Shown piece by piece: positions 6,883 to 29,488 of a DNA stretch of 39,384 nt. The stretch comes from a virus. Taxonomy: Duplodnaviria; Caudoviricetes. The stretch spans positions 1 to 39,384 of IMG/VR virus record IMGVR_UViG_3300010366_000023. The stretch is one strand, 5' to 3'. Each line of letters begins with the position of its first letter. Position 1 is the stretch's first letter. The position numbers and the translations under genes were made by a program. The notes beneath the pieces are model-generated. The model saw only the letters and a program-made list of their open reading frames with translations, had not been told where the DNA came from and did no database searches.

Positions 6883-7185
6883 ATGGCCTGGAATTGGTCG
6901 ACGGTTCTTGAAAGCGCCCCGCGTTCGGCTGCAGGCCGGTTCCTAAACGAGCAGATCGGGCGCCATGCCCCGGGGGCATGGCCAAACGGAACGCGGGTCC
7001 AGCGGGCGATCCTGACGGCTAGGGACCTCGATAGGGTCAAGGACGAGGGGGAGGTGGTGGGCTCGGTCGGTCCCGTCATCATCGCCCACGAGAGGGAATA
7101 CGCGTATCTCGTGGCGTGGGACGACTTCCCCGCCGTCCCTATCCTTACCCTTGGATATCGGCTAGAGCGGATCGATGGATCCTAA
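6883..7185 (+). CDS. Hypothetical protein (possible SH3-like barrel)
   Basis: GAGGGG RBS before ATG 6883; PNGTRV...EGEVVG...YLVAWDD beta pattern. Confidence 0.6.
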   Translation: MAWNWSTVLESAPRSAAGRFLNEQIGRHAPGAWPNGTRVQRAILTARDLDRVKDEGEVVGSVGPVIIAHEREYAYLVAWDDFPAVPILTLGYRLERIDGS

Positions 7186-7300
7186 GGACCTCCACCCCGC
7201 CGCGCGCGCCATCCTCTACACCTTTCTCGGTCTCATGGTGGCGGCATGCGTGGCGCTGGAAATTCTGCTTCTCACGCATGGGAGCCTTTTGGACCCCTAA
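7175..7300 (+). CDS. 41-aa single-TM peptide (not in ORF track)
   Basis: MDPKDLHPAARAILYTFLGLMVAACVALEILLLTHGSLLDP*, translated by hand; overlaps the upstream stop. Confidence 0.5.
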   Translation: MDPKDLHPAARAILYTFLGLMVAACVALEILLLTHGSLLDP

Positions 7301-7445
7301 CGCCGTAGCCGACCGGGCCGCCAACGCCCGGCGGAAGCGCCTTCTTTTTGGCCCGCATGCGCCGAATATCAGCGTCAAATTCGGCGGCCACTTCGGGCTT
7401 GACCGCATGCAGAAACCGCCTCTGCTTAGCGCTCTTATAGGGCAT
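7272..7445 (-). CDS. 57-aa basic protein ending the morphogenesis operon (not in ORF track)
   Basis: MPYKSAKQRRFLHAVKPEVAAEFD...; starts 3 nt after the fibre gene stop. I recall MPxKSxKQRR N-termini from small phage proteins. Confidence 0.65.
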   Translation of the reverse strand: MPYKSAKQRRFLHAVKPEVAAEFDADIRRMRAKKKALPPGVGGPVGYGVRGPKGSHA

Positions 7446-7448
7446 GGC

Positions 7449-8159
7449 CTATGCGCACGCTGCGCCCCATCCGGCGGCGGCATACCTTTCCACCTGGAGT
7501 TTTTCCGGATCGGTGAGGACACGGGAGTAAAGAAGCACCTCCGGTATCGCGCAATTGGCAAACGTGGTCCCCGATCCGGTACAAAAGAGCCGAATTCCTG
7601 CCGCATCGGTACTCGCGACGCTAGCGCCGCTGGCCCGGTTAACCCCGCTTGTCCGTAGGTTCTGCGCCGTTCCCGAGGTTGACCCCGAATAGATGTAGGT
7701 TGTATTGATAAGGGCATCGGTACCCAAAGCGTCAATTTCAGCCGCACCCGAAAGGAATAGGCGCACATCGGTATTCGGTCGCGTTCCAAAGAAGATTCCC
7801 GACGTCACGCCACCATTCGCCCCGCCGATCTGGCATGCGTTGGCGGAAGCGGTCAGCTGGCGAACGATGTAAAAGAGCGTGTAGGGCGGGACCAAGGTGA
7901 ACGCGGCTTGGACGAAATCGTCGACCCCGTCGCCCACCGGGGCGAGCTTACCGTTAACGGTGGTGGTCGTGGGAACGAGGCCGCCTGTCGTTTGGGCCAA
8001 GTCCTTACCGCCAATCTTATCTAACCAATGAAACGAGGTGGCCGGAACGATGGTGAGGCCGCTATCGGCTTTCCACCATGCCATCAGATTGGCAATGGAA
8101 TTAGGATTGAAGCCGCCGCCGCCCTGCATGGCCCACCCGGGCCAACGATTCTTGAGCAT
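7449..8159 (-). CDS. Concanavalin A / LamG-like virion fibre or receptor-binding protein
   Basis: NLMAWWKADSG...WLDK.G...GDGVDD...I.EVLLYSRVLT.PE..QVERY...W pattern. Confidence 0.7.
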   Translation of the reverse strand: MLKNRWPGWAMQGGGGFNPNSIANLMAWWKADSGLTIVPATSFHWLDKIGGKDLAQTTGGLVPTTTTVNGKLAPVGDGVDDFVQAAFTLVPPYTLFYIVRQLTASANACQIGGANGGVTSGIFFGTRPNTDVRLFLSGAAEIDALGTDALINTTYIYSGSTSGTAQNLRTSGVNRASGASVASTDAAGIRLFCTGSGTTFANCAIPEVLLYSRVLTDPEKLQVERYAAAGWGAACA

Positions 8160-8435: not shown

Positions 8436-10976
8436 TTAGGCGGTTTCTAGTTGCTGTGTCCTTGTCTCAATCGCTTTGGAGGTGTCCACCTTGTGGGCAC
8501 TACCGCCTGCCATGCCCTGCGACGGCTGGATTTGCTCCGGAGGCTTGGCGGTATCGCTATTCATGCTCGCGAATAGATCTCCGATCGCTTTGGTGAATTG
8601 GGGCGATTGGGTGGGATCCACCGCCACGCCGAACAATCGCCCGATCTGCAGCTTTTGCGTATAGGCAACGGTCTTACCCTGCTCCGCCATGGCCGTTACC
8701 CGGTCCATCACCTTGGTTTTGACGTCGGAGTAGGTCTCCGGTAGCACAGCCTTAAGCGCCTCCACCGATTCGCTGGACAGCTTGTTATGGGAAAGGTCAT
8801 TGATCGCTGTCATCGGCCTTTGAAGCGTCTTTACGTAACGCATGAATTTCGCCTTAGCCATATCAGTGACGCCCCGTTGCGGCGTCATGGAAAGGGGCGG
8901 GGCGACCGCTTGCATGGGCATCTTGGCCTTTAAGAAGTCAATCGCCTTGGCCTGTTTATTTTGAATCACCATGGCCACCCCGGGCGCATTCTGGATCATG
9001 GGGCCGAGGGTCTGTTCGGTATGGTCGCGGGTCGCCTCCGCCTGGCTTGCAAGCTTGGACACCGCGGCCGTGGCCTGATGGTATTGGCCATCCAAGCTCT
9101 TGGGTGTTTTGGAGGTCTGCAGGGGGATGACGTTGGGGCCGGGACCTACCGTGCCCGCCGCCAGGGCCCCGATTTGATCGGGATTCTGCGCCGCAAGCTT
9201 GGCCGGTACCGCCGCCCCCTTGGATAAAAACTTATCAATGGCGTCCCCTATCTTCTTATCAACGGAAGCCGCCTCCTCCGCCACCGCCCCGACCTTGGAG
9301 AGCTTATCAGCCGCATAGGCAAGAACGGAGGACCCGCGCTCCCTTAGGACCTTGTGCGCCGCGGTCGTGAGAAGGGCCGCCGCCGCCGCCTGCGGATGAA
9401 GGAGAGACAAGGCCGATAGACCATGGCCGGAATGCTCCCCGAAGCCCGTCAGAGCCCCGAAGCCGCCCGCGATTTGATCGGTAAGCGATGCCCAATTGTT
9501 CCCAAGCTTGCCCGCTAGGCCATCGCTCGCCATGTCCGAGGCGAACCGGAGGGAGGAGTAAAGCCGCTTGGTTTCCTGCCAATCCTTAGCGAACGTATCC
9601 GAAATCCCAAGGTCCCGGGCCGCCTTGTCGGCCGATGTCGTTAGCTCGTCCTCCAGAATGCCGCGGAATTTCTTTAACTCATCGGCCATTGGATTGGCCG
9701 CCCGCGAATCCCACCGGATCCGTTCGTCAAGGCCTTTTCGGATATCCCATAGCTTGGCGTGGCCAATCTCATTCCCGGCGAAATCCTCAACAAATGGCTC
9801 TAGCCGCTTGGCCATCGCCTCGCCCAAGTCCCGCTTGGCTGGATTGTCAAGAAGGGGTTGCACCACCTCCTCGTAAGCGCGCTTAACGACCTTGGAGCCG
9901 TCCACCAGATTGCCCTCGCCTCTCGCAACGGCCGCGGCGTCCAGCTCCTTCATCATGTTGCCAAGCTTTTGACCGGTGGCCTCCGCATCCTTACCGACGC
10001 TTTCGGCCACCTGATCCACGCTCCATCCGGGCTGAATGTGCCCTCGCGCCAAAAGGTCCTTGCTGATTTCCTCCGCCCCGCCCGCCCTGGCCTCCGCCTT
10101 CTTGGCCCACGACTTCAAGCCACCCGCGGCCTTGAATGCCCGATCCTCCGCGAATTCCTCTACCGCCCCGCGAATTTTGGGCATGACGGTTTTCGCAGCA
10201 TCCTCAATCAAGCTAGACCCTGCTCCAAGCCCGGCCCCTACCGCGCCACCAAAGAGGGCCCCGTGCTTGGCACCCGTCCAAAGCCGCTCCGCCGTGAGTG
10301 GCTCATTGTCCAAAACAGCATCGGAGTAGGCCCCGCCAAGGCCATAGGCCGCGCCCTCGGTAGCTCCCCTCGCTGCATAGGGCAGTGCTTTCTGTGCGGT
10401 ACGAGCAAGAAGTCCCGCCCCGCCCTCACCCGTTAGCGCGCGGGTCCCGGCCTCCGCCAGGCCGCCGAGCGTATCCACGCCCCGGACGCCCGCTCCGACC
10501 CCGCGAATTCCCTCCCCGGCCAATCCTTCGATTCCGCCGAAGGCGAGCGGGGCGACCGTGCCCACCACTTCGCCCGCGATGTTTGCGGTAGGATTCGTCT
10601 CGGTATAGCCCTTGATGGCCTCCCGGGTCCGCTCCCCGGCGCCTGGACTCCCGAACGCCTCCGCCGCCTTGACTGCGAGGCCCTTGCCGCCTCCAAGTAA
10701 GAGCGCATTGCCCGCTCCGATGGCCCCGGAAATAGCGGCTCCGCCAACGCCTCCGTATTGCTCCTCCCGTGCCGCGGCGGCCTGCTCCTCGGCGGTGGGG
10801 ATCGCGTGCTTGTCGGGGTCATATTGAGAGGCGGGAATCGAACGAACGGCTCCATCCGCGCCAAAGGTCGGGACCATGGTCCCGGGAGCAAATCCATATT
10901 GCCCGGACTTGAACGCCGATCCTACATCCGCATCGGGGATGTCATGGATTTCGCCGTTTCGGTCGATCATATCCAT
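8436..10976 (-). CDS. Internal virion / DNA ejection protein (large)
   Basis: 846 aa; Gly/Ala-rich hydrophobic and helical; third of three such genes after the nozzle. Confidence 0.65.
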   Translation of the reverse strand: MDMIDRNGEIHDIPDADVGSAFKSGQYGFAPGTMVPTFGADGAVRSIPASQYDPDKHAIPTAEEQAAAAREEQYGGVGGAAISGAIGAGNALLLGGGKGLAVKAAEAFGSPGAGERTREAIKGYTETNPTANIAGEVVGTVAPLAFGGIEGLAGEGIRGVGAGVRGVDTLGGLAEAGTRALTGEGGAGLLARTAQKALPYAARGATEGAAYGLGGAYSDAVLDNEPLTAERLWTGAKHGALFGGAVGAGLGAGSSLIEDAAKTVMPKIRGAVEEFAEDRAFKAAGGLKSWAKKAEARAGGAEEISKDLLARGHIQPGWSVDQVAESVGKDAEATGQKLGNMMKELDAAAVARGEGNLVDGSKVVKRAYEEVVQPLLDNPAKRDLGEAMAKRLEPFVEDFAGNEIGHAKLWDIRKGLDERIRWDSRAANPMADELKKFRGILEDELTTSADKAARDLGISDTFAKDWQETKRLYSSLRFASDMASDGLAGKLGNNWASLTDQIAGGFGALTGFGEHSGHGLSALSLLHPQAAAAALLTTAAHKVLRERGSSVLAYAADKLSKVGAVAEEAASVDKKIGDAIDKFLSKGAAVPAKLAAQNPDQIGALAAGTVGPGPNVIPLQTSKTPKSLDGQYHQATAAVSKLASQAEATRDHTEQTLGPMIQNAPGVAMVIQNKQAKAIDFLKAKMPMQAVAPPLSMTPQRGVTDMAKAKFMRYVKTLQRPMTAINDLSHNKLSSESVEALKAVLPETYSDVKTKVMDRVTAMAEQGKTVAYTQKLQIGRLFGVAVDPTQSPQFTKAIGDLFASMNSDTAKPPEQIQPSQGMAGGSAHKVDTSKAIETRTQQLETA

Positions 10977-10982
10977 GGGGCG

Positions 10983-12707
10983 CTATTCCTCATTCGCACC
11001 CGTCCCGCCTGCTACCTGACGGGAGGAATGCGCAAACTTAGTGCCCAAAGCCATATTGGCCGTGCTTTCCGCCGAATTCAGTTCGAGCGCCAATTGCTGT
11101 GGCGACAGCGTGCGGAGGTATTTCTTCTCGTTTTCGAATTCCGTTTCGGTAGCACCCGTCGGGAATCGATTCTTGACAATCTCGGCCCCTACCGCATGGA
11201 TCAAATGCTCGCGCGCATTATAGGCATCGGTCCCGACGGCCGCGGCGGCCTTCCAAAGCTCCGGAGCGCCGATCTTCCATTGGCCGCCGCTGGTGCGCTC
11301 CAAGCCCATGAGGGGCGCGTCGTTTTCGAGCGTATGAAGGAGGACGCGCGCCGGGTGCTTTGCATTGTATTCGGGAGCCGTCCACGCATCCTCGCTCCCC
11401 CCTTTGCCCATGAGAAGGCCTGCGGGAGCGTATTTCGTTTGGTTCGAAGTGGACATGGTATAGCGGTTCAGCTTTTGGATATTGTCGATGCGTTCCGACT
11501 GGATCTTAGCCTGCAAGATCTTCCATTGCGCCCTTTGCTCGGCGGGCAAGTTGCGCGCGCCAATCTCATTGACTTTTTGCTCCACCATTCCGAGCATGGC
11601 AATCCGGACCCCCGTTTCCGCCGCCTGTCTATCGCCATATTCTTGGCGCAATTGACCTAAGAGGTTCGTCTCGGCTTGGATGGTGTCGCGCTTGTTTTTA
11701 AGGTTCGCCTCTTGGGCATGGATATCGTTATCAATGTTCTGTTTCATCTTGTCTACGGCGTAAGCGGGGCCGCCGTTTAGGCTCGCTCCGAAGCCGGAAA
11801 GGCCTTGGAATAGAGCGGACTCCAGCTTATAGGCGGTGTCCTTGTCGCCCCAAAAATGTTTCGGATCAATCTTCTCCGCCGCCGCCTCCCGGGACAACTG
11901 ATCAAGCTTCGCTTGCCGTTCCCCCATCACCCGCCGCCGTTCGGCCTCTATCGCGGCCTGGCGTTCTTGCGATGCCTTCAAGTCCCCTATCGTTTGCGTG
12001 TAGAGGGAACCTAGCTCCCCCGCCTTCTTGCCCTGGACATCCAAAAGGCCCTCTTCCGCCTTGGCCCTGTCCGCATCGGCCCCTTGTTGCTGGGCAATTT
12101 CAGCTTTTGAATATTGATTCTGCCCGACTTTGGTGGTGGTGGTGGCACCCCCCATGCCTATCATTTGAAGGGGATTGATAGCGGGGCCCTGATCCTCTTT
12201 CTTCTTGTCATCGATGAAGATACCGCCCGCCGCCCTTGCCTGCGGGCCGCCTCCGACATCCCCCGGTCGCGCCAAAAACGGAGGAGCCACACCCGGAGCC
12301 GCGGGCTTACCGGACAAGGCGGACTTATATTGCTTATCCTCCGCCTCTGCCTTGGCCTCCGCTTCTCTCTTTAGATCGTTTGGATCCTTGTAGGCATGGC
12401 GCAACCCTGCCTTGAATTCATCAATCGCGTTTTGTCCGCGTTGAAAGAAGTCGGGAGGCTTCGCCGGGAGCGGCGAGGCGGGAGGCGGCGGCGGAGCGGG
12501 TGTCATGGCCGGCCCCTCGGACGCCAGCGGGCCGGGCGATGACATGACGTCGACCGATGGGGGGGCCGCCGAGGGCGGGGCGCCCGCCTGGGTCGCTAGG
12601 TAATCGCGCGCCGCATCGCCGCGCAGGAAGGCGGGGCCGTCCGGGTCATCGGTCGGCACCATGATCGTTCCATCCGGCATCGATGCTGCGCCCGGGCCGA
12701 AATTCAT
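10983..12707 (-). CDS. Internal virion / DNA ejection protein
   Basis: 574 aa; Pro-rich N-terminus and long coiled coils; podoviral gene position. Confidence 0.6.
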   Translation of the reverse strand: MNFGPGAASMPDGTIMVPTDDPDGPAFLRGDAARDYLATQAGAPPSAAPPSVDVMSSPGPLASEGPAMTPAPPPPPASPLPAKPPDFFQRGQNAIDEFKAGLRHAYKDPNDLKREAEAKAEAEDKQYKSALSGKPAAPGVAPPFLARPGDVGGGPQARAAGGIFIDDKKKEDQGPAINPLQMIGMGGATTTTKVGQNQYSKAEIAQQQGADADRAKAEEGLLDVQGKKAGELGSLYTQTIGDLKASQERQAAIEAERRRVMGERQAKLDQLSREAAAEKIDPKHFWGDKDTAYKLESALFQGLSGFGASLNGGPAYAVDKMKQNIDNDIHAQEANLKNKRDTIQAETNLLGQLRQEYGDRQAAETGVRIAMLGMVEQKVNEIGARNLPAEQRAQWKILQAKIQSERIDNIQKLNRYTMSTSNQTKYAPAGLLMGKGGSEDAWTAPEYNAKHPARVLLHTLENDAPLMGLERTSGGQWKIGAPELWKAAAAVGTDAYNAREHLIHAVGAEIVKNRFPTGATETEFENEKKYLRTLSPQQLALELNSAESTANMALGTKFAHSSRQVAGGTGANEE

Positions 12708-14335
12708 GCGGCCTGCCCCCCTTCGTACGGATCCTTAATCCCGTCGTCGATTTGATAACCCGTATCCTTCGGCGTAACCGCGGGCGTTCCCGTCCCCGGG
12801 GCCCCGGTGTTCCCGGGCTTCCCCGATTGGGAATCGATGTAGCTTTGACCCAAAGTGGAGGCCCCTTGCGCCGCGGCCCCAACGTATTTGTCGGTACGGT
12901 TTTCGCCGAATTCCTTGGACTTCTCGGCAAGCTCCCCCGTATTGGTATTGGCGTTTTGTTGCGCGATCCCCACTTCCTGGTAGCCGTGCGCTTGATTGTA
13001 GAGCGCCGTCTCCCGATTAACGGCCATATCCTGCGCGCGGTTTTGCTGGCCAAAATATTGATTGGTGTAGTATTGGACTTGGGTGTCGTTAAGACCGCGT
13101 TGCCTTAGTTCGGCGTCTAGTTTGGCCTTGGCCTCGGACGAGGTAATGAGGCCCTGCTGGACGGCATTGTTGTATTTGTCGGCAAGGACCGTGGCCTCGT
13201 TCCTCTGCGCCCCGCCAAGCTCATTGGCCGCCACGTTCTGCTCTTGGATCCCCGCGGTTCTCTGCTGGCCAAGAACGGTCCCTAGCGCCTCCCGGGCTTG
13301 CGCATATTCCTGCGCCCGAAGCTCCGCCTGCTGGCGAGTCGTTTGCTGCATAAGGTTCTGATTTGCGCGCAACGCCTCTAGCTGAGTAAGCCCTTGGGTC
13401 GGCCCTCGCGCGCTATTGGCAAGCGAAAGGCTATTGGCCATCGCAATGTCGCGACCCTCCAATAGCTGTTGTTCGGCCAAGGACGGCGCCCCGCCCTCTA
13501 GATCGCGATTGAGCCTGTCAATGAGAGCCTGCTGCCCCGCCCCGGACGCCCCTGTCATCAAGGTCTGCGCCTGCTGGCGTTGGAGGTCCCCCAAGTCACT
13601 GACGCGTTGCTCTTGAGGAGCGGCGCTGCTGAAATCGATCCGGGTATCCGCCATCGTCGGAGCGGCCCGGTTCGCGGCGTCCTTGGCGTTTGCCGCTAGC
13701 TGGCGGGTATCGGTCTGTGGGTTTTTGGCGATTTGGGTCTGCAGATCTTGCTTTTGCTGGATCGCCAGATTGAGCGCCGCTTGGAGGCCTGGGTTATTCT
13801 TGACGTCCTCGGACAGGATCGCGATCCGCTTGTCGAGGTTGTCAAGTTGGCCCTGCTGGACCGGGGTGACGATGGGCGTCCCATAGCCCGCGCTAGCGGG
13901 CGTATCCCATGCTGCAGGATTCATTTGATACCCCACTCCTTGGACGCCACCCGCCCCCGGGCTCCCCACCGGAACGACATTTCCATTCGCATCTAGCGTC
14001 GTAGGCCCGGAGCCCTTACTGCTGGCGCTTTCGGTAAGCTTATCCCCGGCGGCCTTTCCAAGTGAATATCCGGCGGCGGCCCCCGCCGGCCCTCCGGCGA
14101 CAAATCCGCCCACCCCCCCGGCGATGCTAAGGACCGTCCCCATATCGGGGCCATTCGGGGACTTAGTCCAATTGTCTCCGTTTTGCATATAGGTCCAGAC
14201 GTTATCCGTCGCCTTTTGCACCTGTTCCGGAGACCAATCCGGATGTTGCTGCGCGATGGATTGGGCCCATCCGGCCATAAACCGGTCCTTATTCTCCGCT
14301 AGCGCCTTATTGCGGAGGTCATCGCTCCAATTCAT
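12704..14335 (-). CDS. Internal virion / pilot (ejection) protein
   Basis: 543 aa; GGVGGFVAGGPAGAAAG glycine zipper; Gln/Ala-rich helices. Confidence 0.65.
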   Translation of the reverse strand: MNWSDDLRNKALAENKDRFMAGWAQSIAQQHPDWSPEQVQKATDNVWTYMQNGDNWTKSPNGPDMGTVLSIAGGVGGFVAGGPAGAAAGYSLGKAAGDKLTESASSKGSGPTTLDANGNVVPVGSPGAGGVQGVGYQMNPAAWDTPASAGYGTPIVTPVQQGQLDNLDKRIAILSEDVKNNPGLQAALNLAIQQKQDLQTQIAKNPQTDTRQLAANAKDAANRAAPTMADTRIDFSSAAPQEQRVSDLGDLQRQQAQTLMTGASGAGQQALIDRLNRDLEGGAPSLAEQQLLEGRDIAMANSLSLANSARGPTQGLTQLEALRANQNLMQQTTRQQAELRAQEYAQAREALGTVLGQQRTAGIQEQNVAANELGGAQRNEATVLADKYNNAVQQGLITSSEAKAKLDAELRQRGLNDTQVQYYTNQYFGQQNRAQDMAVNRETALYNQAHGYQEVGIAQQNANTNTGELAEKSKEFGENRTDKYVGAAAQGASTLGQSYIDSQSGKPGNTGAPGTGTPAVTPKDTGYQIDDGIKDPYEGGQAA

Positions 14336-17300
14336 TGCCTAGCCTCCACCTGTAGGGCATGCCCGCGGCTCCCTTTCTTCGGGACCACCTCAAGAATCAA
14401 GCCGCTCATCCAAACGCTATTGCCGTTGGCGGTAGCCGCCTGCTGAGTGGAAATGCGAAACCGCACCCCCGCACATTTCTGTTGAATGAGGTGGTAGGAA
14501 ACCTCCTCCTTGACGGCCAGGCCGTCTAAGGTCGCCCCGTTAATGGTTTTCGATTCGCCGAAAGTAGAGGATCCGTCGTAGGCCACTTCAATCTTTAACG
14601 CGTGGTTTTGCTGGCGCGTGCCTAGAAAGGTGGCGGTTCGCACCCGGCCGTAGGCTTGACGGCCTCCAAATGGATAGATGTTGGCCATTTCCACCACGGC
14701 AGGGATAAAGAGGCCGAAGTCATCATAGGCCGTCAAGGATTCGAGCCAAATGGCAGGCTGAAATCCGCTCGCCCACATGAGCTTATACGAAATGCCGTTA
14801 ATACATTTCGCATCGATGTAATCGAGCAAAAACCCGACGTCGAGACCCGCATAGTCAAACGTGGACCATGTCCCCCGGGGGCTTGCCTGCATGGTGTTGC
14901 GCGTATTGAGCACCAATTCCTGATGGCGGGGCATTAGGGCGGGATTGTTGATACTGAACCGCACCTCGTCCCGATCGGTAGGCACGTAAGCCGCCATAAT
15001 CTCGTAGTTTTCAAGCCAGCCGTCTACCTCATGGCCAATCGGGACAAGCGTTAGGGCTCGGTCAAGGAGGAAAATACCTTTTTGGGACCCGAAGTAAACG
15101 CCCGCCTCCGCCACCACCACACTCCGCCAATCGGTGGCGCCCACGTCGGAGGCGAGCTTATTGATTTGGATATTGAGGCCTTGCCCCCGATCGTCCGGCC
15201 AGGCCCCGCTAACGACAAAGGCCTCCGTTGCCGTGAAGGCGATAAGCTTGTCGTCCACGCTCGCCAATGCTGTCGGCTGTCCTCCGGTCGGCAGGCGAAA
15301 TTGCAGGGCATCGTTGAAGCCCGGAGCAATCCCCGGAACGTATTCCTTGGAGTACCAGATCGATCCGTCCTCCGCCGAAATCAGAAATAGGCGGTTCGCG
15401 TGGGTGATGATGACATCCGTGCTAGGCGGGGCGTAATTGGCGAGCGCTCCACCGTCTGTATAGAGGGTGGGGAAGCTCTGGATCGTGGCGTCCGGATTGA
15501 TGAGGCTAAAGATGAGGGGGGTATCGCTACCATTGTTGCTCGCCACATTGGTGGGCGTTTGCTGACGATAAAACGTGGTCCCCGCCGCCGTGGTTCCATA
15601 GATCATGAGTCGCACGGGCGAAAGGGCAGGCTCCGCGACAGAATCCCGGTTCGAGAAGGGGAGCGGTTCAACCTGTCCTTGCACCGTTTGATTGGGTGCA
15701 ACGATGGTAATGGATGCCGCAAGGCCCGGGGCCGATCGGTGCTCATTGCCCCTAGCGTCCGTCCACTCCCACACCGCTAGGTATTGATGGACGCCAGCAT
15801 CGATTGTCCCGCCTGCATTGATGGCCGCCAAAACAGGCGCTTGAGGCTGTGCGGAAAACCCCACTTCAAAACAATCCCGGCCATCGAAACAGCAGAGATG
15901 CCCTCCCGCGAGGTAGGTGAGGCCGCCTAGCTCGGTACTGCAGTAGCGAGCATGGGAGACATAATCCAAAAAGACAAGGTCAACGCCCGATTGTTCGATG
16001 ACCGTCGTATAGTCATAATTGATTCGCTGCTTTTGCTTGGTGACAATCGTTGTCAAAAGCCGCCCATCCGGTAGGGTGATGACGGACGGAACGGTAAAGC
16101 CAAAGCTAGGCTCAAATCCGGCGATGAGGCGGGCGCATTCCGCATCGAATAGAGTGGACAGAAACCCACTAGCGGCGGTACCGAGCGGGACGACGATCGC
16201 CGCCCCTTGGATGGGGTCAACCTGCAGGCCCCCCTTGATGTTGCTCTCCAGGGCACGCGTTACCCCGTTGCGATCCAGCCAGGGCTTCGTTAAAAGCTGG
16301 CGAGCATAGCCGACCGAGGTGCTACCGAGCACACCAGCATTGGAGACGTCCCGCGTATTGGTTCGATAGAGTGGCCCCGCCACGGACGTGGTCCATACCG
16401 CCCTCGCGTGGGTCGCGTCCTCTCGACATAGCGCCACGACTTTGCCCGCTGGCCAGGCCGCCTCAAGAGTCACGGCCGCAAAGGCGGCTACGAGGTTGGA
16501 GCCATTGGAGGTGTAGCCTCGACACTTGAGGTCCCCCGTGGCGTTTTCACGATAGGCGAGGTAGACCCGCTCATTGGCCGTGCCGCAGGTGGCGATGCAA
16601 TCGGCACTCGGAACGGTGGGGAAGGTTACGCTGGCAAGCTGGCCCATACCGGAATCACGGATCCCAAGCTCATTGCTAGCGACTGTTTTAAAGGCAAAGA
16701 GAAACCGATCCGTAAACCCCCCTAGCGGAGCCGTGTCGATGGGCCCGTCCCCATTGGCGTCAAAAACCCCATCTGCGCTATCGATGGCCATCGTTGCCGT
16801 ATTGATGCGGAAAGCGCGGATGCCGGAACCGGTGGCGAAGTAGAAACACCAAAACCATTGATTCACGGCCGCAATGCGCGGCCGGCTCGAATTCGTGGTC
16901 TGATAGGGGGCGAACCGCTTAATCACCTCACCCGTCTTTGCGTCCGCCAACATCCAAACGATATAGTGGGTGGAGGTATAGACCGATCCTGGCCAATGCT
17001 GGCAGGCCCCGACAAGGATGTACCGGCCATCGATGGAGAGGGCAATGTCCGTTTCCGATACCCTCGCATTTTCCCGCACGATCGATTGACGTTTGATTCC
17101 AGCAAGGCCCCCCAAAAGGGTCCCATGAAGGATCCCCGTCATATCGCGGATCGTGGCGTTCACCTCGTCCGTAATGAGGTACGGGGTTTTATTGTGCTCA
17201 AACAAGCGAACGCCGTTGAAGGGCGTTCCGAGGGCGAGCGTGAGCGGCGTATGCCCGTTGCGAGTCCGTAGGGCCCCCGGGGTAGAGAACACGACGTTTT

Positions 17301-17397
17301 GGGCCGTAAGGAGCTTGGTCGTTACCACGGCACGTGGATCCGTTCGGGTGTCGATGCCATCCCCGAAATTCACCTCCACTAGCTGCGAATCGGCCAT
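14332..17397 (-). CDS. Tail nozzle / tail tubular protein B-like
   Basis: About 1020 aa, beta-rich; N-terminal GIDT..DP...AQNVVF...GAL..RNG; C-terminal propeller-like RLF/IWYSK/DVGA motifs; follows the adaptor. Confidence 0.7.
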   Translation of the reverse strand: MADSQLVEVNFGDGIDTRTDPRAVVTTKLLTAQNVVFSTPGALRTRNGHTPLTLALGTPFNGVRLFEHNKTPYLITDEVNATIRDMTGILHGTLLGGLAGIKRQSIVRENARVSETDIALSIDGRYILVGACQHWPGSVYTSTHYIVWMLADAKTGEVIKRFAPYQTTNSSRPRIAAVNQWFWCFYFATGSGIRAFRINTATMAIDSADGVFDANGDGPIDTAPLGGFTDRFLFAFKTVASNELGIRDSGMGQLASVTFPTVPSADCIATCGTANERVYLAYRENATGDLKCRGYTSNGSNLVAAFAAVTLEAAWPAGKVVALCREDATHARAVWTTSVAGPLYRTNTRDVSNAGVLGSTSVGYARQLLTKPWLDRNGVTRALESNIKGGLQVDPIQGAAIVVPLGTAASGFLSTLFDAECARLIAGFEPSFGFTVPSVITLPDGRLLTTIVTKQKQRINYDYTTVIEQSGVDLVFLDYVSHARYCSTELGGLTYLAGGHLCCFDGRDCFEVGFSAQPQAPVLAAINAGGTIDAGVHQYLAVWEWTDARGNEHRSAPGLAASITIVAPNQTVQGQVEPLPFSNRDSVAEPALSPVRLMIYGTTAAGTTFYRQQTPTNVASNNGSDTPLIFSLINPDATIQSFPTLYTDGGALANYAPPSTDVIITHANRLFLISAEDGSIWYSKEYVPGIAPGFNDALQFRLPTGGQPTALASVDDKLIAFTATEAFVVSGAWPDDRGQGLNIQINKLASDVGATDWRSVVVAEAGVYFGSQKGIFLLDRALTLVPIGHEVDGWLENYEIMAAYVPTDRDEVRFSINNPALMPRHQELVLNTRNTMQASPRGTWSTFDYAGLDVGFLLDYIDAKCINGISYKLMWASGFQPAIWLESLTAYDDFGLFIPAVVEMANIYPFGGRQAYGRVRTATFLGTRQQNHALKIEVAYDGSSTFGESKTINGATLDGLAVKEEVSYHLIQQKCAGVRFRISTQQAATANGNSVWMSGLILEVVPKKGSRGHALQVEARQ

Positions 17398-17726
17398 CAC
17401 CAGATCCAAAGGGTAAAATTGGCGGCCGTTCCGCCCGCCGCCTGCCGTACGGTTACCGTCTTAGCGTCGCCCGCCCGAAAGATGAGAGGAGCCACCGCCG
17501 CGACAGTGCCATCGCAGCGGCATGTGATGATGCCACGGGGAATCCGTTTTAGCCCGTGCGAAATGATAACATCATTGGTCGTAATCGAGATGGGCCCCGT
17601 CATCTCCCCCGACAAGAATGGAAAGGACTTCGCCAGCGCCCGAAACGCCTCTTGGATCCGCTCTTGGATGAAGCGTAGATCCTGGACTCCGGTATATTGA
17701 TTCGTGGGGGGACGGACTTCGGGCAT
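17397..17726 (-). CDS. Small virion protein
   Basis: IISHGLKRIPRG motif; lies between adaptor and nozzle. Confidence 0.55.
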   Translation of the reverse strand: MPEVRPPTNQYTGVQDLRFIQERIQEAFRALAKSFPFLSGEMTGPISITTNDVIISHGLKRIPRGIITCRCDGTVAAVAPLIFRAGDAKTVTVRQAAGGTAANFTLWIW

Positions 17727-24496: not shown

Positions 24497-25009
24497 ATGG
24501 ATGATGAGGCGTTAAGGGGTTATCGGGAACAAATGGCCGCGCAGCGGGCGCTTTGGCCGAAGGGGCCATGGAGCGATGAGCCTGATCGCGTGGAATGGAC
24601 CTCCCATGGGTTCCCGTGCCTTATTGTCCGCAATAGCCTTGGCGCCCTTTGCGGTTATGTGGCCGTCCCCGCCGACCACCCGGCCCACGGAAAGCATTGG
24701 GCTAGTGTCCCCGCCACGGCCCACCGCGGCCTCAATTACTCCCGCCCGTGTCAAACGGTGATTTGCCACGCGGGAGCGGATGAGAATGTGTGGTGGCTGG
24801 GCTTTGATTGCATCCACATTGGATTCGATGAACAGGCGGACCTCGCGCCGGGGGAATTTATCTTTGGCATGTTGGACGGGTCCCATGCGCGTTCTTTTTT
24901 GCGTGGCGGCGGCCCGCAGTATCGGACGATCGCCTATGTGACGGGGGAGGTGGAGTCTTTGGCGGAGCAATTGGAGGCGATGAAGGGGACCGAATGCCGC
25001 AAACCTTGA
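24497..25009 (+). CDS. Conserved phage hypothetical protein
   Basis: GALCGYVAVP..HP...HRGLNY...WWLGFDC.H, a pattern I recall from many phage proteins. Confidence 0.75.
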   Translation: MDDEALRGYREQMAAQRALWPKGPWSDEPDRVEWTSHGFPCLIVRNSLGALCGYVAVPADHPAHGKHWASVPATAHRGLNYSRPCQTVICHAGADENVWWLGFDCIHIGFDEQADLAPGEFIFGMLDGSHARSFLRGGGPQYRTIAYVTGEVESLAEQLEAMKGTECRKP

Positions 25010-26790: not shown

Positions 26791-26828
26791 AAGGGGGGCG
26801 GCTCCTTGGCGGGGGAGCCGCCTCTTTC
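26791..26828 (+). terminator. GC-rich hairpin, probable terminator
   Basis: GGCGGCTCC (26797-26805) pairs with GGAGCCGCC (26814-26822), then TCTTTC. Confidence 0.55.
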
Positions 26829-26861: not shown

Positions 26862-27089
26862 ATGATCGGTGAGATGCGAACGATGGACGGAACGGGGGAT
26901 ACCAAGGTGACTTGGGACACGGAGAAACCGGCCGAGGTGGAGGCCGCGCGCGAAACGTTCTACTCCTTGAAAAAGCAGGGATACGCCGGGTATCGCGTCA
27001 CCCGCGGCGGGGAGAAGGACGAAATCCTCCATGAGTTTGATCCCCACGCCGGGCTCCTCATCATGGCGCCTCCGATGGTAGGGGGCTAG
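26862..27089 (+). CDS. Small protein with C-terminal di-glycine (candidate ubiquitin-like modifier)
   Basis: 75 aa ending ...LIMAPPMVGG-stop; purine-rich RBS. Confidence 0.75.
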   Translation: MIGEMRTMDGTGDTKVTWDTEKPAEVEAARETFYSLKKQGYAGYRVTRGGEKDEILHEFDPHAGLLIMAPPMVGG

Positions 27090-27090
27090 C

Positions 27091-27744
27091 GTGCCGACCG
27101 TGGCCCGATGGCCCGGATGGGTGGTTTCTAATTGCACCAATTGCACCACCGCCACCACCGCCACCTCCTATAACGTCACCACCGCTTGGCAGATTTGGAC
27201 CAACCAAACGACGGCCTACAACAATGCGGCGGCCATCTACGTTTGGCCGGAATGGGCGCAAACGTACGCGGCCATGCGTGAGGAGCAAATCCAAGCGCTT
27301 TCCAATGCGCAAGGCGCCCTTGCGGGGATTGGGAAAAACGTCAACGTCCAACCCAAGATTTCCGAGGAGAGGCGGCGGGGGATTCTTGAGGAGCGGGAAC
27401 GCTGGCGAAAGATCCAAGAGGAGGCTACGGCCAAGGCGGCGGCGGCGCTCAAGCGGGCGGAGGCGCTCCTTTTGGCGTGCCTTACGGACGAGCAGAAACA
27501 CGAACTAGTGACGGACAAGCGGTTCCATGTGGTGACTCCGAGCGGTAAACGCTACCGCATCAAGCGGCACACCCACGGAAACGTCCTCCTTCTTGACGAC
27601 CACGGGGAACCGGTCCGCCGTTACTGTGCCCAACCGGGAGGCGTCCCCGATGATGACGCGATACTCGCGCAAGTCTTAGCGCTTCGAACCGATGAGGCCG
27701 CGTTTTTACGCGTGGCCAACGAAACCATTTTAAGGGCAGGGTGA
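27091..27744 (+). CDS. Hypothetical partner protein with Cys motif
   Basis: Starts 1 nt after the GG-protein stop. Thr/Asn/Trp-rich N-terminus, coiled coil, C-terminal domain RYCAQPGGVPDDDAILAQVLALRTDEAAF. Confidence 0.75.
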   Translation: MPTVARWPGWVVSNCTNCTTATTATSYNVTTAWQIWTNQTTAYNNAAAIYVWPEWAQTYAAMREEQIQALSNAQGALAGIGKNVNVQPKISEERRRGILEERERWRKIQEEATAKAAAALKRAEALLLACLTDEQKHELVTDKRFHVVTPSGKRYRIKRHTHGNVLLLDDHGEPVRRYCAQPGGVPDDDAILAQVLALRTDEAAFLRVANETILRAG

Positions 27745-27748
27745 AGCC

Positions 27749-28120
27749 ATGATTGACAGCAACGGAAATTCCGCGGTTACCGTGGACCGTCTCGAGTTAC
27801 TGCAAGTAGTGGCCAAAAACCTGGAGGGCCACCGGACGGCCTTTCTGGAGGCCCAAGCCGGGTTTAGGGAGGCTTTTATCAAGGAGCTGGACTCCATGCT
27901 TGCCGACGCGCGGGCGGGCCGCCAATACCGCCGGTCGATCACCCTCCCGGAGCCGCTGGACCATTCCAAGGATTACCGCCGCGTGATCCGCATGCTGGAA
28001 ATGTCCAGGTCTGAGCAAGTCACCATTACAGAGCACGATTTTGGCCAATACGTTATGGACGAATGGGGGTGGAAAGAGGAATTCTCCACCGTTGCGTCTA
28101 ACTACTCCAAAAGAGGATAG
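27749..28120 (+). CDS. Conserved phage hypothetical protein
   Basis: V.R.ELL.....N...H...F.EA...P.DH..DY.R.I.MLEMS...YVMDEW.W. Confidence 0.75.
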   Translation: MIDSNGNSAVTVDRLELLQVVAKNLEGHRTAFLEAQAGFREAFIKELDSMLADARAGRQYRRSITLPEPLDHSKDYRRVIRMLEMSRSEQVTITEHDFGQYVMDEWGWKEEFSTVASNYSKRG

Positions 28121-28123
28121 CCA

Positions 28124-28480
28124 TTGCGGGTGCTCGTCTGCGGTGGTCGGCACTATGAAAACAGGGTCCGGGTGTACTCGGTCCTCGACTATATCCATAA
28201 GCCAACACCGATCACGCTCCTTATCCACGGGGCAGGCTTTGGAACCGATATATTAGCTGGACAATGGGCGGCGGCGCGAGGGGTCAAGGTTTATGCGATC
28301 CCCGCTCTTTGGGACGTCTATGGAAAGAAGGCCGGGCCCATTCGAAACCAAATGATGATAGACGGTGGCAAGCCCGAAATGGTGGTGGCGTTCCCGGGCG
28401 GGCGAGGAACGGCCGATATGATCGCACGGGCGAACCGGGTCCCCGGGATCAAGGTTACTATCTTGGGGCCGGACGCATGA
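28124..28480 (+). CDS. SLOG-superfamily protein (DUF2493 / YspA-like)
   Basis: MRVLVCGGR, IHGA..G.D, W..YGKKAGPIRN..M, VVAFPGGRGT.DM. Confidence 0.88.
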   Translation: MRVLVCGGRHYENRVRVYSVLDYIHKPTPITLLIHGAGFGTDILAGQWAAARGVKVYAIPALWDVYGKKAGPIRNQMMIDGGKPEMVVAFPGGRGTADMIARANRVPGIKVTILGPDA

Positions 28481-28704: not shown

Positions 28705-29048
28705 AAAAGCCGAATCGGGCCGCCGTGACGGCTAGGATAGTCGCCGCGCAATTCTCGCCTACGCCGCTTTCGGCGGCGGCATACCGGAAGGCGATACGCG
28801 CTACCTGGAAAGCCGCCGCCGATTACGCGCAGAAGCAACGAAAACCGCCCCTTCCTAAGGGGGAATTGGCGATCGTGCTTATCGCAACCGGCCTTAGCAT
28901 GTTGGCGGAATGTGTCGGCAAGGAGCCTGCTGCCGCATGCGTAGCCCTAATGGCCATAGAAATGAACGGGCCGCGCGACCTTCAACGCCAAATTAGAGCG
29001 CAAATGAAGCGGGGGAATAGCCTTCTAAGGAGCGGCGCGAAGAAATGA
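28701..29048 (+). CDS. Hypothetical protein
   Basis: ATGA-coupled on both sides. Confidence 0.6.
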   Translation: MKKPNRAAVTARIVAAQFSPTPLSAAAYRKAIRATWKAAADYAQKQRKPPLPKGELAIVLIATGLSMLAECVGKEPAAACVALMAIEMNGPRDLQRQIRAQMKRGNSLLRSGAKK

Positions 29049-29488
29049 GCACGGCGCAAAATCCCTTAGAGCTAGACGGCCGCATCATCATTGTCGGCGG
29101 CCCCCGATGTGGGAAGTCGACGATCGCCCGCTCCTACCTCGCCCGCGGCGTTCCCGTCTATTGCGGCGATCCGGCTCACTTGGTCAAGGACCGGGAGGAC
29201 GGCATTACCTACCTTCCGCCTGGCCTTACTTGGTCCGATGGCTCCGCCTACGTGGCGCAGGAATGGTTCCCGATGCCGGGCCCGTGGGTGTGCGAAGGGC
29301 AGATCATGGCGAGGGCGCTCCGCAAATGGCTACGGGGGAGCCCTCCGGCCGATCATATCGTCGTGCTGGGACACCACCACCCGAAAGCCAGGCCGACACC
29401 GGGACAACGGGCGATGCACACGGCCGTCATGAGCATTTGGCGTGAGATTGCCCACAGGTATCGGGCGATTGTGGTGATACCCGCATGA
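29045..29488 (+). CDS. Small P-loop kinase-like NTPase
   Basis: IIIVGGPRCGKSTIA Walker A; WVCEG motif of NMP-kinase-type folds. Confidence 0.75.
   Translation: MSTAQNPLELDGRIIIVGGPRCGKSTIARSYLARGVPVYCGDPAHLVKDREDGITYLPPGLTWSDGSAYVAQEWFPMPGPWVCEGQIMARALRKWLRGSPPADHIVVLGHHHPKARPTPGQRAMHTAVMSIWREIAHRYRAIVVIPA

What the first reader, a model, noticed from the sequence alone, without database searches (positions are those of the whole stretch)
26862..27744. Gly-Gly-terminated mini-protein plus Cys-motif partner: candidate minimal phage ubiquitin-like conjugation system
Seen: a 75-aa protein (predicted by eye as two strands, a helix, then strands) ends in an exposed ...PPMVGG-stop. The next gene starts 1 nt later and has a low-complexity N-terminus, a coiled coil and a compact C-terminal domain with RYCAQPGGVPDDDAILAQ. 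A strong hairpin at 26791-26828 separates the pair from upstream genes. Established: a free C-terminal GG marks ubiquitin/ThiS/MoaD/SAMP-type modifiers, which are transferred via enzyme Cys thioesters, and bacterial ubiquitin-like defences conjugate such proteins onto virion proteins. Inference: this is a two-gene tagging module, or a decoy for host Ubl/E1-E2 defence. I recognised no E1, canonical E2 or JAB protease anywhere in the genome, so the chemistry would be novel or borrowed from the host.
Basis: partly seen in the sequence, partly recalled or inferred. Interest (0 to 1): 0.8.

Follow-up and report, generated by a model that had tools for sequence, protein, structure and literature searches.

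The report
Phage ubiquitin-like tag with cysteine partner
This phage carries a widely conserved, apparently undescribed gene pair: a small protein ending in Gly-Gly, predicted to fold like ubiquitin, and a partner whose near-invariant cysteine is predicted to grip that tail; it is likely a stripped-down protein-tagging kit that borrows the host's activating enzyme, but no chemistry has been tested.

Summary
Observation confirmed and far beyond chance. The two genes (26862-27089, 27091-27744) lie together in 54 of 55 distinct loci. The 55th starts inside the partner. The small protein's last glycine is kept in 149 of 149 aligned homologues; the partner's Cys179 in 92 of 94 domains. The small protein has about 2,650 cluster-level relatives and no Pfam, PHROG, NCBIfam or PADLOC family. 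It is predicted to be beta-grasp. The partner only weakly resembles the E2/RWD fold (Z below 5). A complex model passes its controls (0.75 vs 0.36), with the tail at the Cys-bearing loop. No E1 or JAB was found in this contig (about 43% complete) or in 6 of 7 near-complete related phages. The pair is also chromosomal in 7 of 10 genomes of one actinobacterial family. Best reading (about 50%): a minimal E2-like carrier charged by a host ThiF/MoeB-type E1. Rivals: non-covalent plug or decoy, deconjugase, sulfur relay, self-sufficient ligase. It is not a member of Bil, Bub or E2-CBASS. The hairpin is real but unremarkable. The scan noted what reads as the same pair on other DNA before.

The parts
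26862..27089 (+). Small Gly-Gly-terminated protein (75 aa), predicted beta-grasp (ubiquitin-like) fold
27081..27089 (+). Gly74-Gly75-stop; Gly75 kept in 149 of 149 aligned, Gly74 in 146 of 149
27091..27744 (+). Partner gene (217 aa): Thr/Asn/Trp-rich, Lys-poor N-terminus, long helix, C-terminal alpha/beta domain with Cys179, Pro186, Asp189, Asn210
27391..27741 (+). Partner residues 101-217, the part modelled (pLDDT 95.7): helix, helix, four-strand meander ending in Cys179, two helices, strand; weak UBC/RWD-like resemblance; predicted to bind the GG protein
27625..27627 (+). Cys179 codon, the predicted active-site cysteine (92 of 94 domains)
26795..26824 (+). 11-13 bp hairpin with weak T-tract upstream of the pair; possible terminator, not above chance for the region

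Best explanation
The two adjacent genes likely form a minimal ubiquitin-like tagging module: the small protein, predicted to fold like ubiquitin, would be activated at its final glycine by a host enzyme, passed to the partner's conserved cysteine and then attached to a target protein. Steps. (1) SHOWN in sequence: the genes are co-inherited, the last Gly and Cys179 are near-invariant, and no activating enzyme is linked. (2) PREDICTED: beta-grasp fold; 1:1 complex in which the tag's sheet patch (M8, A42, Y44, I67, A69) packs on the partner helix D189-T200, and tail residues 70-73 contact residues 180-182, next to Cys179. This recalls the closed E2~ubiquitin arrangement (comparison from memory). 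(3) INFERRED: a host ThiF/MoeB/MoeZ-type E1 adenylates Gly75, because a free carboxylate cannot form a thioester without energy and about 90% of tags have nothing after the Gly. (4) INFERRED: Cys179 takes the tag as a thioester, with Asn210 near the tail possibly stabilising the intermediate. (5) INFERRED, weakest: the tag is transferred to a target lysine, perhaps chosen by the variable low-complexity N-terminus. Target and biological purpose are unknown; in the phage, tagging of host proteins is my guess.
For: Co-occurrence: 54 of 55 distinct loci, 18 of 18 cellular loci. Tail pattern: the last Gly is fixed while the one before is replaced by A, S, R, K or P. Among the top 150 representatives 135 end GG, 5 end xG and 10 carry GG plus an extension of 1 to more than 100 residues. 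This is the pattern of a reactive terminal Gly with occasional pro-forms, as in BilA (PMC10557695 passages). Cys179 92 of 94, Pro186 93 of 94, Asp189 91 of 94, Asn210 80 of 94 (His in 7); the two misses at Cys are a contig end (L040) and a sequence that diverges just before it (L039). Fold of the tag: about 44 of the 50 VIA rows are beta-grasp by my reading of titles and recall (best Z 5.5, rmsd 3.4, 59 aligned, protein L; SUMO, Ufm1, ISG15, TtuB and BubA also listed); top Foldseek rows are Smt3 (E 0.027) and MoaD. Partner: about 10 of the top 14 VIA rows are UBC/RWD/UEV-type. Complex: ipSAE 0.75/0.72/0.75, best control 0.36, at least 97% contact agreement, partner pLDDT at least 87; the mark was reached by 116 of 157 solved and 2 of 215 mismatched pairs, counts that hold only roughly for my own alignments. 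ThiF-family genes are present in 5 of 5 pair-carrying bacterial genomes tested, although 11-12 of 14 control genomes have them too.
Against: No biochemistry. Partner fold matches are all Z below 5 (best 4.8, rmsd 3.2, 82 aligned, likely the RWDD3 RWD domain, which is not an enzyme), and phage P1 head chain 9ukm_I scores 4.9 in a second look; Foldseek found nothing at E <= 0.001. I could not check whether Cys179 superposes on an E2 catalytic Cys. The HGN motif that resembles E2 HPN is not conserved (His162 42 of 94, Asn164 54 of 94). The best-pair list of the complex names tail residues up to 73; residues 74-75 and Cys179 are in the interface list, but their distance was not given. The pass may partly reflect memory of E2~Ub structures. 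PMC10557695 states that ThiF/MoeB pathways do not encode E2s and do not mediate conjugation, so step 3 has no precedent that I saw. No E1 is linked in any locus examined, and operons of known systems carry their own.
Confidence: 0.5

Rival explanations
1. Non-covalent pair: the Gly-Gly tail plugs the partner's cysteine site as an inhibitor (toxin-antitoxin-like, small gene first), or the tag acts as a decoy substrate for host Bil/CBASS E1-E2 enzymes.
For: Strict two-gene coupling with the small gene upstream and no third shared gene; a confident complex is predicted without any E1; 10 of 150 tags have extensions after GG, so a free carboxylate is not universal; a narrow cleft would also select glycines.
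Against: Terminal Gly plus stop is kept in about 93% (140 of 150), which suggests the carboxylate matters. Retention at a fixed chromosomal locus in 7 of 10 genomes of a bacterial family fits poorly with an anti-defence decoy. No PADLOC match in 9 proteins tested.
Confidence: 0.17
2. The partner is a tag-specific cysteine protease (deconjugase or pro-form processor), and conjugation is done by unlinked host machinery.
For: Extensions after GG need trimming and no JAB is linked; the tail lies along the Cys loop as a substrate would; a lone bacterial E2 has this activity (10.1101/2022.05.25.493364, section 6).
Against: No conserved His for a Cys-His dyad, which the E2-CBASS enzyme needs (H87A is dead); about 90% of tags need no processing.
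Confidence: 0.13
3. Sulfur relay: the tag is thiocarboxylated by host MoeZ/MoeB like ThiS, MoaD or Urm1, and passes sulfur to Cys179 (persulfide or acyl-disulfide), with any conjugation a by-product.
For: Host ThiF-family enzymes are the only activators at hand; sulfur carriers are among the fold neighbours (MoaD, TtuB, Mth1743); thiocarboxylated Urm1 conjugates without E2 and persulfidates cysteines (PMC9574740, abstract only).
Against: No sulfur-metabolism gene is shared: none among 21 viral loci plus the window; the chromosomal neighbours tested are SCP2, NlpC/P60, SDR, metallo-beta-lactamase fold and MaoC.
Confidence: 0.12
4. Self-sufficient ligase: the partner alone cleaves and ligates the tag with no E1 or ATP, like the E2 of E2-CBASS.
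For: No E1 in 17 of 20 carrier records and in 6 of 7 near-complete ones. Precedent in E2-CBASS, where purified proteins link in vitro and removal of the residue after the Gly had no effect.
Against: His not conserved. Most tags have no bond after Gly75 to transpeptidate from. Cleavage between Gly74 and Gly75 is disfavoured because Gly74 is the substitutable one.
Confidence: 0.08

Closest known systems
Bil (BilABCD) bacterial ubiquitination (PMC10557695 passages; PMC11601596 section 5)
   Same: Beta-grasp modifier with a reactive C-terminal Gly, sometimes as a pro-form; a Cys-bearing partner; no E3.
   Different: No E1 (BilD) or JAB (BilC) in the operon; the partner lacks the Cys-plus-His motif and is only weakly E2-like; carried by phages and by a chromosomal locus rather than being a described defence operon; no PADLOC match.
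Bub operons (PMC11601596 abstract, sections 5 and 12)
   Same: Diverged Ubl/E2-type machinery; chains of the Bub structure 9eav appear weakly in both fold searches (chain C Z 3.5, chain D Z 3.4).
   Different: Bub encodes E1, BubE and (type I) a JAB, and uses Tyr/Ser oxyesters; here there are two genes and a Cys.
E2-CBASS (type II short), lone E2 (10.1101/2022.05.25.493364 sections 4 and 6; PMC12948482 passages)
   Same: A single Cys enzyme beside a Gly-ended substrate, no E1 in the operon.
   Different: The substrate there is a CD-NTase, here a beta-grasp protein; E2-CBASS needs His87, and no His is conserved here.
Sulfur carriers ThiS/MoaD/TtuB and Urm1 (PMC9574740 abstract; the rest recalled)
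   Same: Beta-grasp fold with GG end; would use ThiF/MoeB-type activators.
   Different: No Pfam ThiS match for the window protein, no linked cofactor-synthesis genes, and a dedicated Cys partner of an unknown family.
RWD/UEV domains (4Y1L contains the RWDD3 RWD domain, PMC4927773 passages)
   Same: Best weak fold neighbours of the partner (Z 4.8 to 3.4).
   Different: RWD/UEV domains lack the catalytic Cys (recalled); the partner has a near-invariant one.

Membership tests
Beta-grasp (ubiquitin-like) fold | Strand-strand-helix-strand-strand-strand topology with beta-grasp structural neighbours | tested here: met
   AF2 pLDDT 86; about 44 of 50 VIA rows beta-grasp by my reading, best Z 5.5; Foldseek top Smt3, E 0.027. 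Each match is weak; the consistency carries the call.
Ubl modifiers / sulfur carriers | Conserved exposed C-terminal Gly | tested here: met
   149 of 149 in A7; 140 of 150 end in Gly and 10 more have GG plus an extension
Ubl modifiers / sulfur carriers | Sequence match to a named family (ThiS/MoaD, ubiquitin, BilA) | tested here: not met
   No Pfam, PHROG, PADLOC or NCBIfam match for the window protein; none among the 25 of 63 weak Pfam families shown for 149 members; ESM Atlas nearest named cluster 0.77 with ThiS on 24% of members, a lead only
Ubl modifiers / sulfur carriers | Adenylation by an E1, then conjugation or thiocarboxylation | not testable with these tools
   needs biochemistry
UBC-fold E2 enzymes | UBC fold | tested here: inconclusive
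   UBC/RWD/UEV chains fill about 10 of the top 14 VIA rows but all Z < 5; Foldseek none; 9ukm_I Z 4.9
UBC-fold E2 enzymes | Conserved Cys placed at the modifier's C-terminus | tested here: met
   Cys179 92 of 94; Cys179 and tail 69-75 both in the predicted interface; prediction only, distance not given
UBC-fold E2 enzymes | HPN-type or Cys-plus-His motif, or profile match to UQ_con/Prok-E2 | tested here: not met
   His162 42 of 94, Asn164 54 of 94; no Pfam hit for the window domain, none among the 25 of 53 families shown for 58 members
UBC-fold E2 enzymes | Forms a thioester and transfers the modifier | not testable with these tools
   needs biochemistry
Bil (BilABCD) | Operon with E1 and JAB beside Ubl and E2 | tested here: not met
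   No third shared gene in 21 loci plus the window; ThiF in 3 of 20 and JAB in 3 of 20 records, the JAB-linked copies far from the pair
Bub | E1 and BubE in the operon; Ser/Tyr nucleophiles | tested here: not met
   Two-gene unit with an invariant Cys
E2-CBASS | CD-NTase substrate and Cys-His dyad | tested here: not met
   The neighbour is a 75-aa beta-grasp protein; His not conserved

The most novel reading that the evidence does not exclude
The smallest protein-conjugation system: a new modifier family (about 2,650 cluster representatives) and a roughly 100-residue stripped-down E2/RWD-like cysteine enzyme, spread by phages and fixed in some actinobacteria. It would tap housekeeping sulfur-carrier activators, which are reported not to feed conjugation, or dispense with E1 altogether. 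It would be a ubiquitin-like weapon on the virus side of the phage-host conflict.
Probability: 0.4. Interest if true: 0.9.

Novelty: new variant of a known kind. Interest (0 to 1): 0.74.

Why it matters
The bacterial ubiquitin-like systems in the papers I read are host defence or candidate defence operons and, apart from E2-CBASS, carry their own E1. A two-gene Ubl plus Cys-enzyme unit with no activator, common in uncultured phages and fixed in a bacterial family, would show that viruses also use this chemistry. It would also give a living intermediate between sulfur carriers and E1-E2 cascades. It is directly testable with two small proteins.

Tried and rejected
Single-protein scan of viral contigs: 0 relatives among 9 pattern hits. 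Cellular genomes by pattern: the partner pattern gave 11 stretches, none confirmed; a loose DNA motif for the tail gave 120 loci, 0 of 120 real by HMM, from only 5 of 64 parts of the collection. Not found in 301 genomes of the Acidobacteriota phylum or 151 of the Gemmatimonadota phylum searched, nor in 5 single genomes. PDB sequence searches gave only chance-level hits. Agrobacterium phage Atu_ph07: BFVD suggested a partner-like fold (E 2.7e-3), but neither profile matched its genome, so it is not counted as a carrier. The unlinked JAB-Ubl-ThiF genes of three jumbo phages hold no member of either family; rejected as the pair's regular activator because 6 of 7 near-complete carriers lack ThiF. 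The HGN-equals-HPN idea was rejected (His 42 of 94). Sortase-like cleavage between the two glycines was rejected as unlikely (Gly74 varies, Gly75 does not). Co-divergence of the two proteins (Mantel Spearman 0.45, 0 of 500 permutations reach it) is noted but not counted as co-evolution, since kin share both genes. No RNA holder was listed for the region; this is no evidence either way. Earlier-finding look-ups by sequence and by place gave nothing. The UQ_con search of the contig had no positive control. Literature searches (listings only) showed no paper on this pair; the library lacks most subscription journals, and I did not examine supplements of comparative-genomics surveys of prokaryotic Ubl/E2 families, which could list it.

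Full report
OBSERVATION. The window is a phage contig with integrase, terminase, an SU10-type portal and adaptor, and a weak major head match. These scans plus searches covered 64 of the 223 ORFs of 60 aa or more, chosen by me as likely genes. CheckV puts the contig at 43% complete. The upstream hairpin exists (11-13 bp, 26795-26824), but the region folds no better than shuffles (z -0.85), and terminator-like sites are at chance level.

THE SMALL PROTEIN. It has no match in Pfam, PHROGs, PADLOC or NCBIfam. A profile of the first 16 homologues finds 2,656 representatives at E <= 0.001 and 1,172 at 1e-10. Of the best 150, 135 end GG, 5 end xG and 10 have GG followed by an extension. The profile itself rewards GG, so the unbiased test is the partner-anchored set: 23 of 23 loci with upstream DNA carry the small gene, 21 ending GG-stop and 2 AG-stop (20 of 20 after removing duplicates). 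In alignment A7, Gly75 is kept in 149 of 149 and Gly74 in 146 of 149. AF2 gives strand-strand-helix-strand-strand-strand with a looser tail (pLDDT 86). About 44 of the 50 VIA rows are beta-grasp proteins by my reading of titles and recall, though none is strong (best Z 5.5). Foldseek's top rows are Smt3 and MoaD at E 0.03-0.07. I take the fold as beta-grasp, with no named family.

THE PARTNER. In 94 distinct C-terminal domains (loci plus database proteins), Cys179 is present in 92, Pro186 in 93, Asp189 in 91 and Asn210 in 80. His162 is present in 42 only. The N-terminal regions of the database homologues are rich in Thr (17%), Trp and Tyr and nearly free of Lys (0.5%); in chromosomal versions they are short. 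The AF2 model of residues 101-217 is confident (95.7): two helices, a four-strand meander ending at Cys179, two helices and a strand. Foldseek finds nothing significant in the PDB. VIA puts UBC/RWD/UEV-type chains in about 10 of the top 14 rows (RWD domains of GCN2, RWDD2 and RNF25, VPS37A, FANCL, a Bub chain), with UBE2S and Cap2 lower, all at Z < 5. The top row, 4y1l_C (109 residues), is likely the RWDD3 RWD domain, not Ubc9 (PMC4927773 passages; chain assignment inferred from length). An unrelated phage P1 head chain scores 4.9 in the second look. The E2 likeness is a lead, not a membership.

THE PAIR. 15 of 15 viral loci found with the small protein have the partner directly downstream. 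Over 55 distinct loci with either gene (six duplicates dropped: L003, L012, L018, L022, L024, L030), 54 have both on one strand in this order, the partner ending 329-1135 nt after the tag. The exception, L038, begins inside the partner. One locus has a short ORF between the genes (L042), and two records carry a second partner copy (L015, Rctr197k). No third gene is shared among 21 viral loci and the window; the metagenome loci L023-L040 were not clustered for this. The predicted complex scores 0.75 (0.75, 0.72, 0.75) against a best control of 0.36, with at least 97% contact agreement and partner pLDDT at least 87. The mark was reached by 116 of 157 solved and 2 of 215 mismatched pairs, roughly applicable here. 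Tag residues M8, A42, Y44, I67 and A69 pack on the partner helix 189-200, tail residues 70-73 touch 180, 182 and 185, and Cys179, His162-Gly163 and Asn210 are in the interface. From memory, this mirrors ubiquitin's Leu8/Ile44/Val70 patch on the E2 crossover helix. The model may lean on such structures, and it does not show binding or chemistry.

DISTRIBUTION AND ACTIVATOR. ThiF occurs in 3 of 20 carrier records and in 1 of 7 near-complete ones; JAB in the same three large phages. Neither occurs in this contig. In those three phages the JAB-linked E1 genes lie far from the pair and hold no member of either family. The small-protein profile matches 16 of 401 genomes of the phylum of G019 (a Solirubrobacterales record, hence Actinomycetota by my knowledge), 0 of 301 Acidobacteriota and 0 of 151 Gemmatimonadota genomes searched. 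All 18 cellular loci fetched (18 of 19 matches; the long-frame weak match in G446 was left out) have both genes, 17 ending GG-stop and one GGAA-stop. In one family, 7 of 10 genomes carry the pair, mostly in a shared neighbourhood of SCP2, NlpC/P60, SDR, metallo-beta-lactamase-fold and MaoC genes. ThiF-family genes are present elsewhere in 5 of 5 carriers tested, as in most bacteria. Among GenBank phages only the uncultured Rctr197k and LR756511 matched; no cultured carrier was found.

MECHANISM. A fixed last Gly with a variable preceding residue and occasional extensions points to chemistry at the Gly75 carbonyl. A near-invariant Cys at the tail-binding loop points to an acyl-enzyme. With no bond after Gly75 in about 90% of tags, a thioester needs activation, and no activator travels with the pair. 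I therefore favour a minimal E2-like carrier charged by a host ThiF/MoeB/MoeZ-type enzyme (0.5). Rivals are a non-covalent plug or decoy (0.17), a deconjugase (0.13), a sulfur relay (0.12) and a self-sufficient ligase (0.08). Against my reading: PMC10557695 says ThiF/MoeB pathways do not mediate conjugation, and the E2 fold match is weak. The target is unknown.

KNOWN SYSTEMS AND NOVELTY. It works like a Ubl-E2 pair but fails membership of Bil, Bub and E2-CBASS on gene content and motifs. Papers seen: 10.1101/2022.05.25.493364 abstract and sections 4 and 6; PMC11601596 abstract and sections 5 and 12; passages of PMC10557695, PMC12948482, PMC11153139, PMC7824862, PMC6102473 and PMC4927773; PMC9574740 abstract. 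Six topic searches (listings only) showed no description of this pair. Subscription journals and survey supplements were not seen. Four earlier notes of this scan describe what reads as the same pair on other DNA. They are not independent evidence, and sequence look-ups did not link them to this window. Their actinobacterial lead I tested myself.

VERDICT. A real, widespread and apparently undescribed two-gene module with strong comparative and structural-prediction support for a ubiquitin-like tag plus cysteine enzyme, and no evidence yet on chemistry or target. New variant of a known kind; interest 0.74.

Noticed in passing
L044:4523-5763 (G018); L043:3757-7429 (Rctr197k); L046:4617-6542 (LR756511): Three large phages carry nearby JAB and ThiF (E1) genes far from the pair. 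In G018 the order is JAB, an 86-aa protein ending RPKTPFG-stop, then ThiF, downstream of a vWA protein; Rctr197k gp224 has a similar N-terminal sequence with a C-terminal extension (by eye). This looks like a separate phage-borne Ubl system.
   Followed up: partly
P0112, P0172, P0204; L041:4815-5246 (Rctr197k gp113): Tandem or partly duplicated forms of the small protein, with only the last copy ending in Gly (GG, KG or PG), as in multi-domain Ubls.
   Followed up: no
L015:5222-6153; L041:5264-6070 and 7150-7989: Two partner paralogues per record, both with the Cys.
   Followed up: no
P0144, P0207, P0095: Tags with long C-terminal extensions after GG; these may be fusions, pro-proteins or read-through artefacts.
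   Followed up: no
window 28124-28480: YspA/cpYpsA-related SLOG protein (PF10686, E 9e-17) two genes downstream; homologues also occur in 2 of 21 related loci (L008, L017).
   Followed up: no
window 27749-28120, 24497-25009, 29045-29488: Neighbours: phrog_34511 (unknown function), phrog_2164 (unknown function) and a small P-loop protein with weak AAA matches.
   Followed up: no
L041:3327-3581: Annotated CRISPR repeat region about 1.2 kb upstream of the pair in Rctr197k.
   Followed up: no
L039:114-509: Partner frame that diverges right after the HGNV motif and lacks the Cys; possibly a broken gene or an assembly artefact.
   Followed up: no
window 8436-17409 (-): Four long ORFs (846, 574, 543 and 1025 aa) after the head genes, with almost no family match; probably internal virion or tail proteins.
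   Followed up: no
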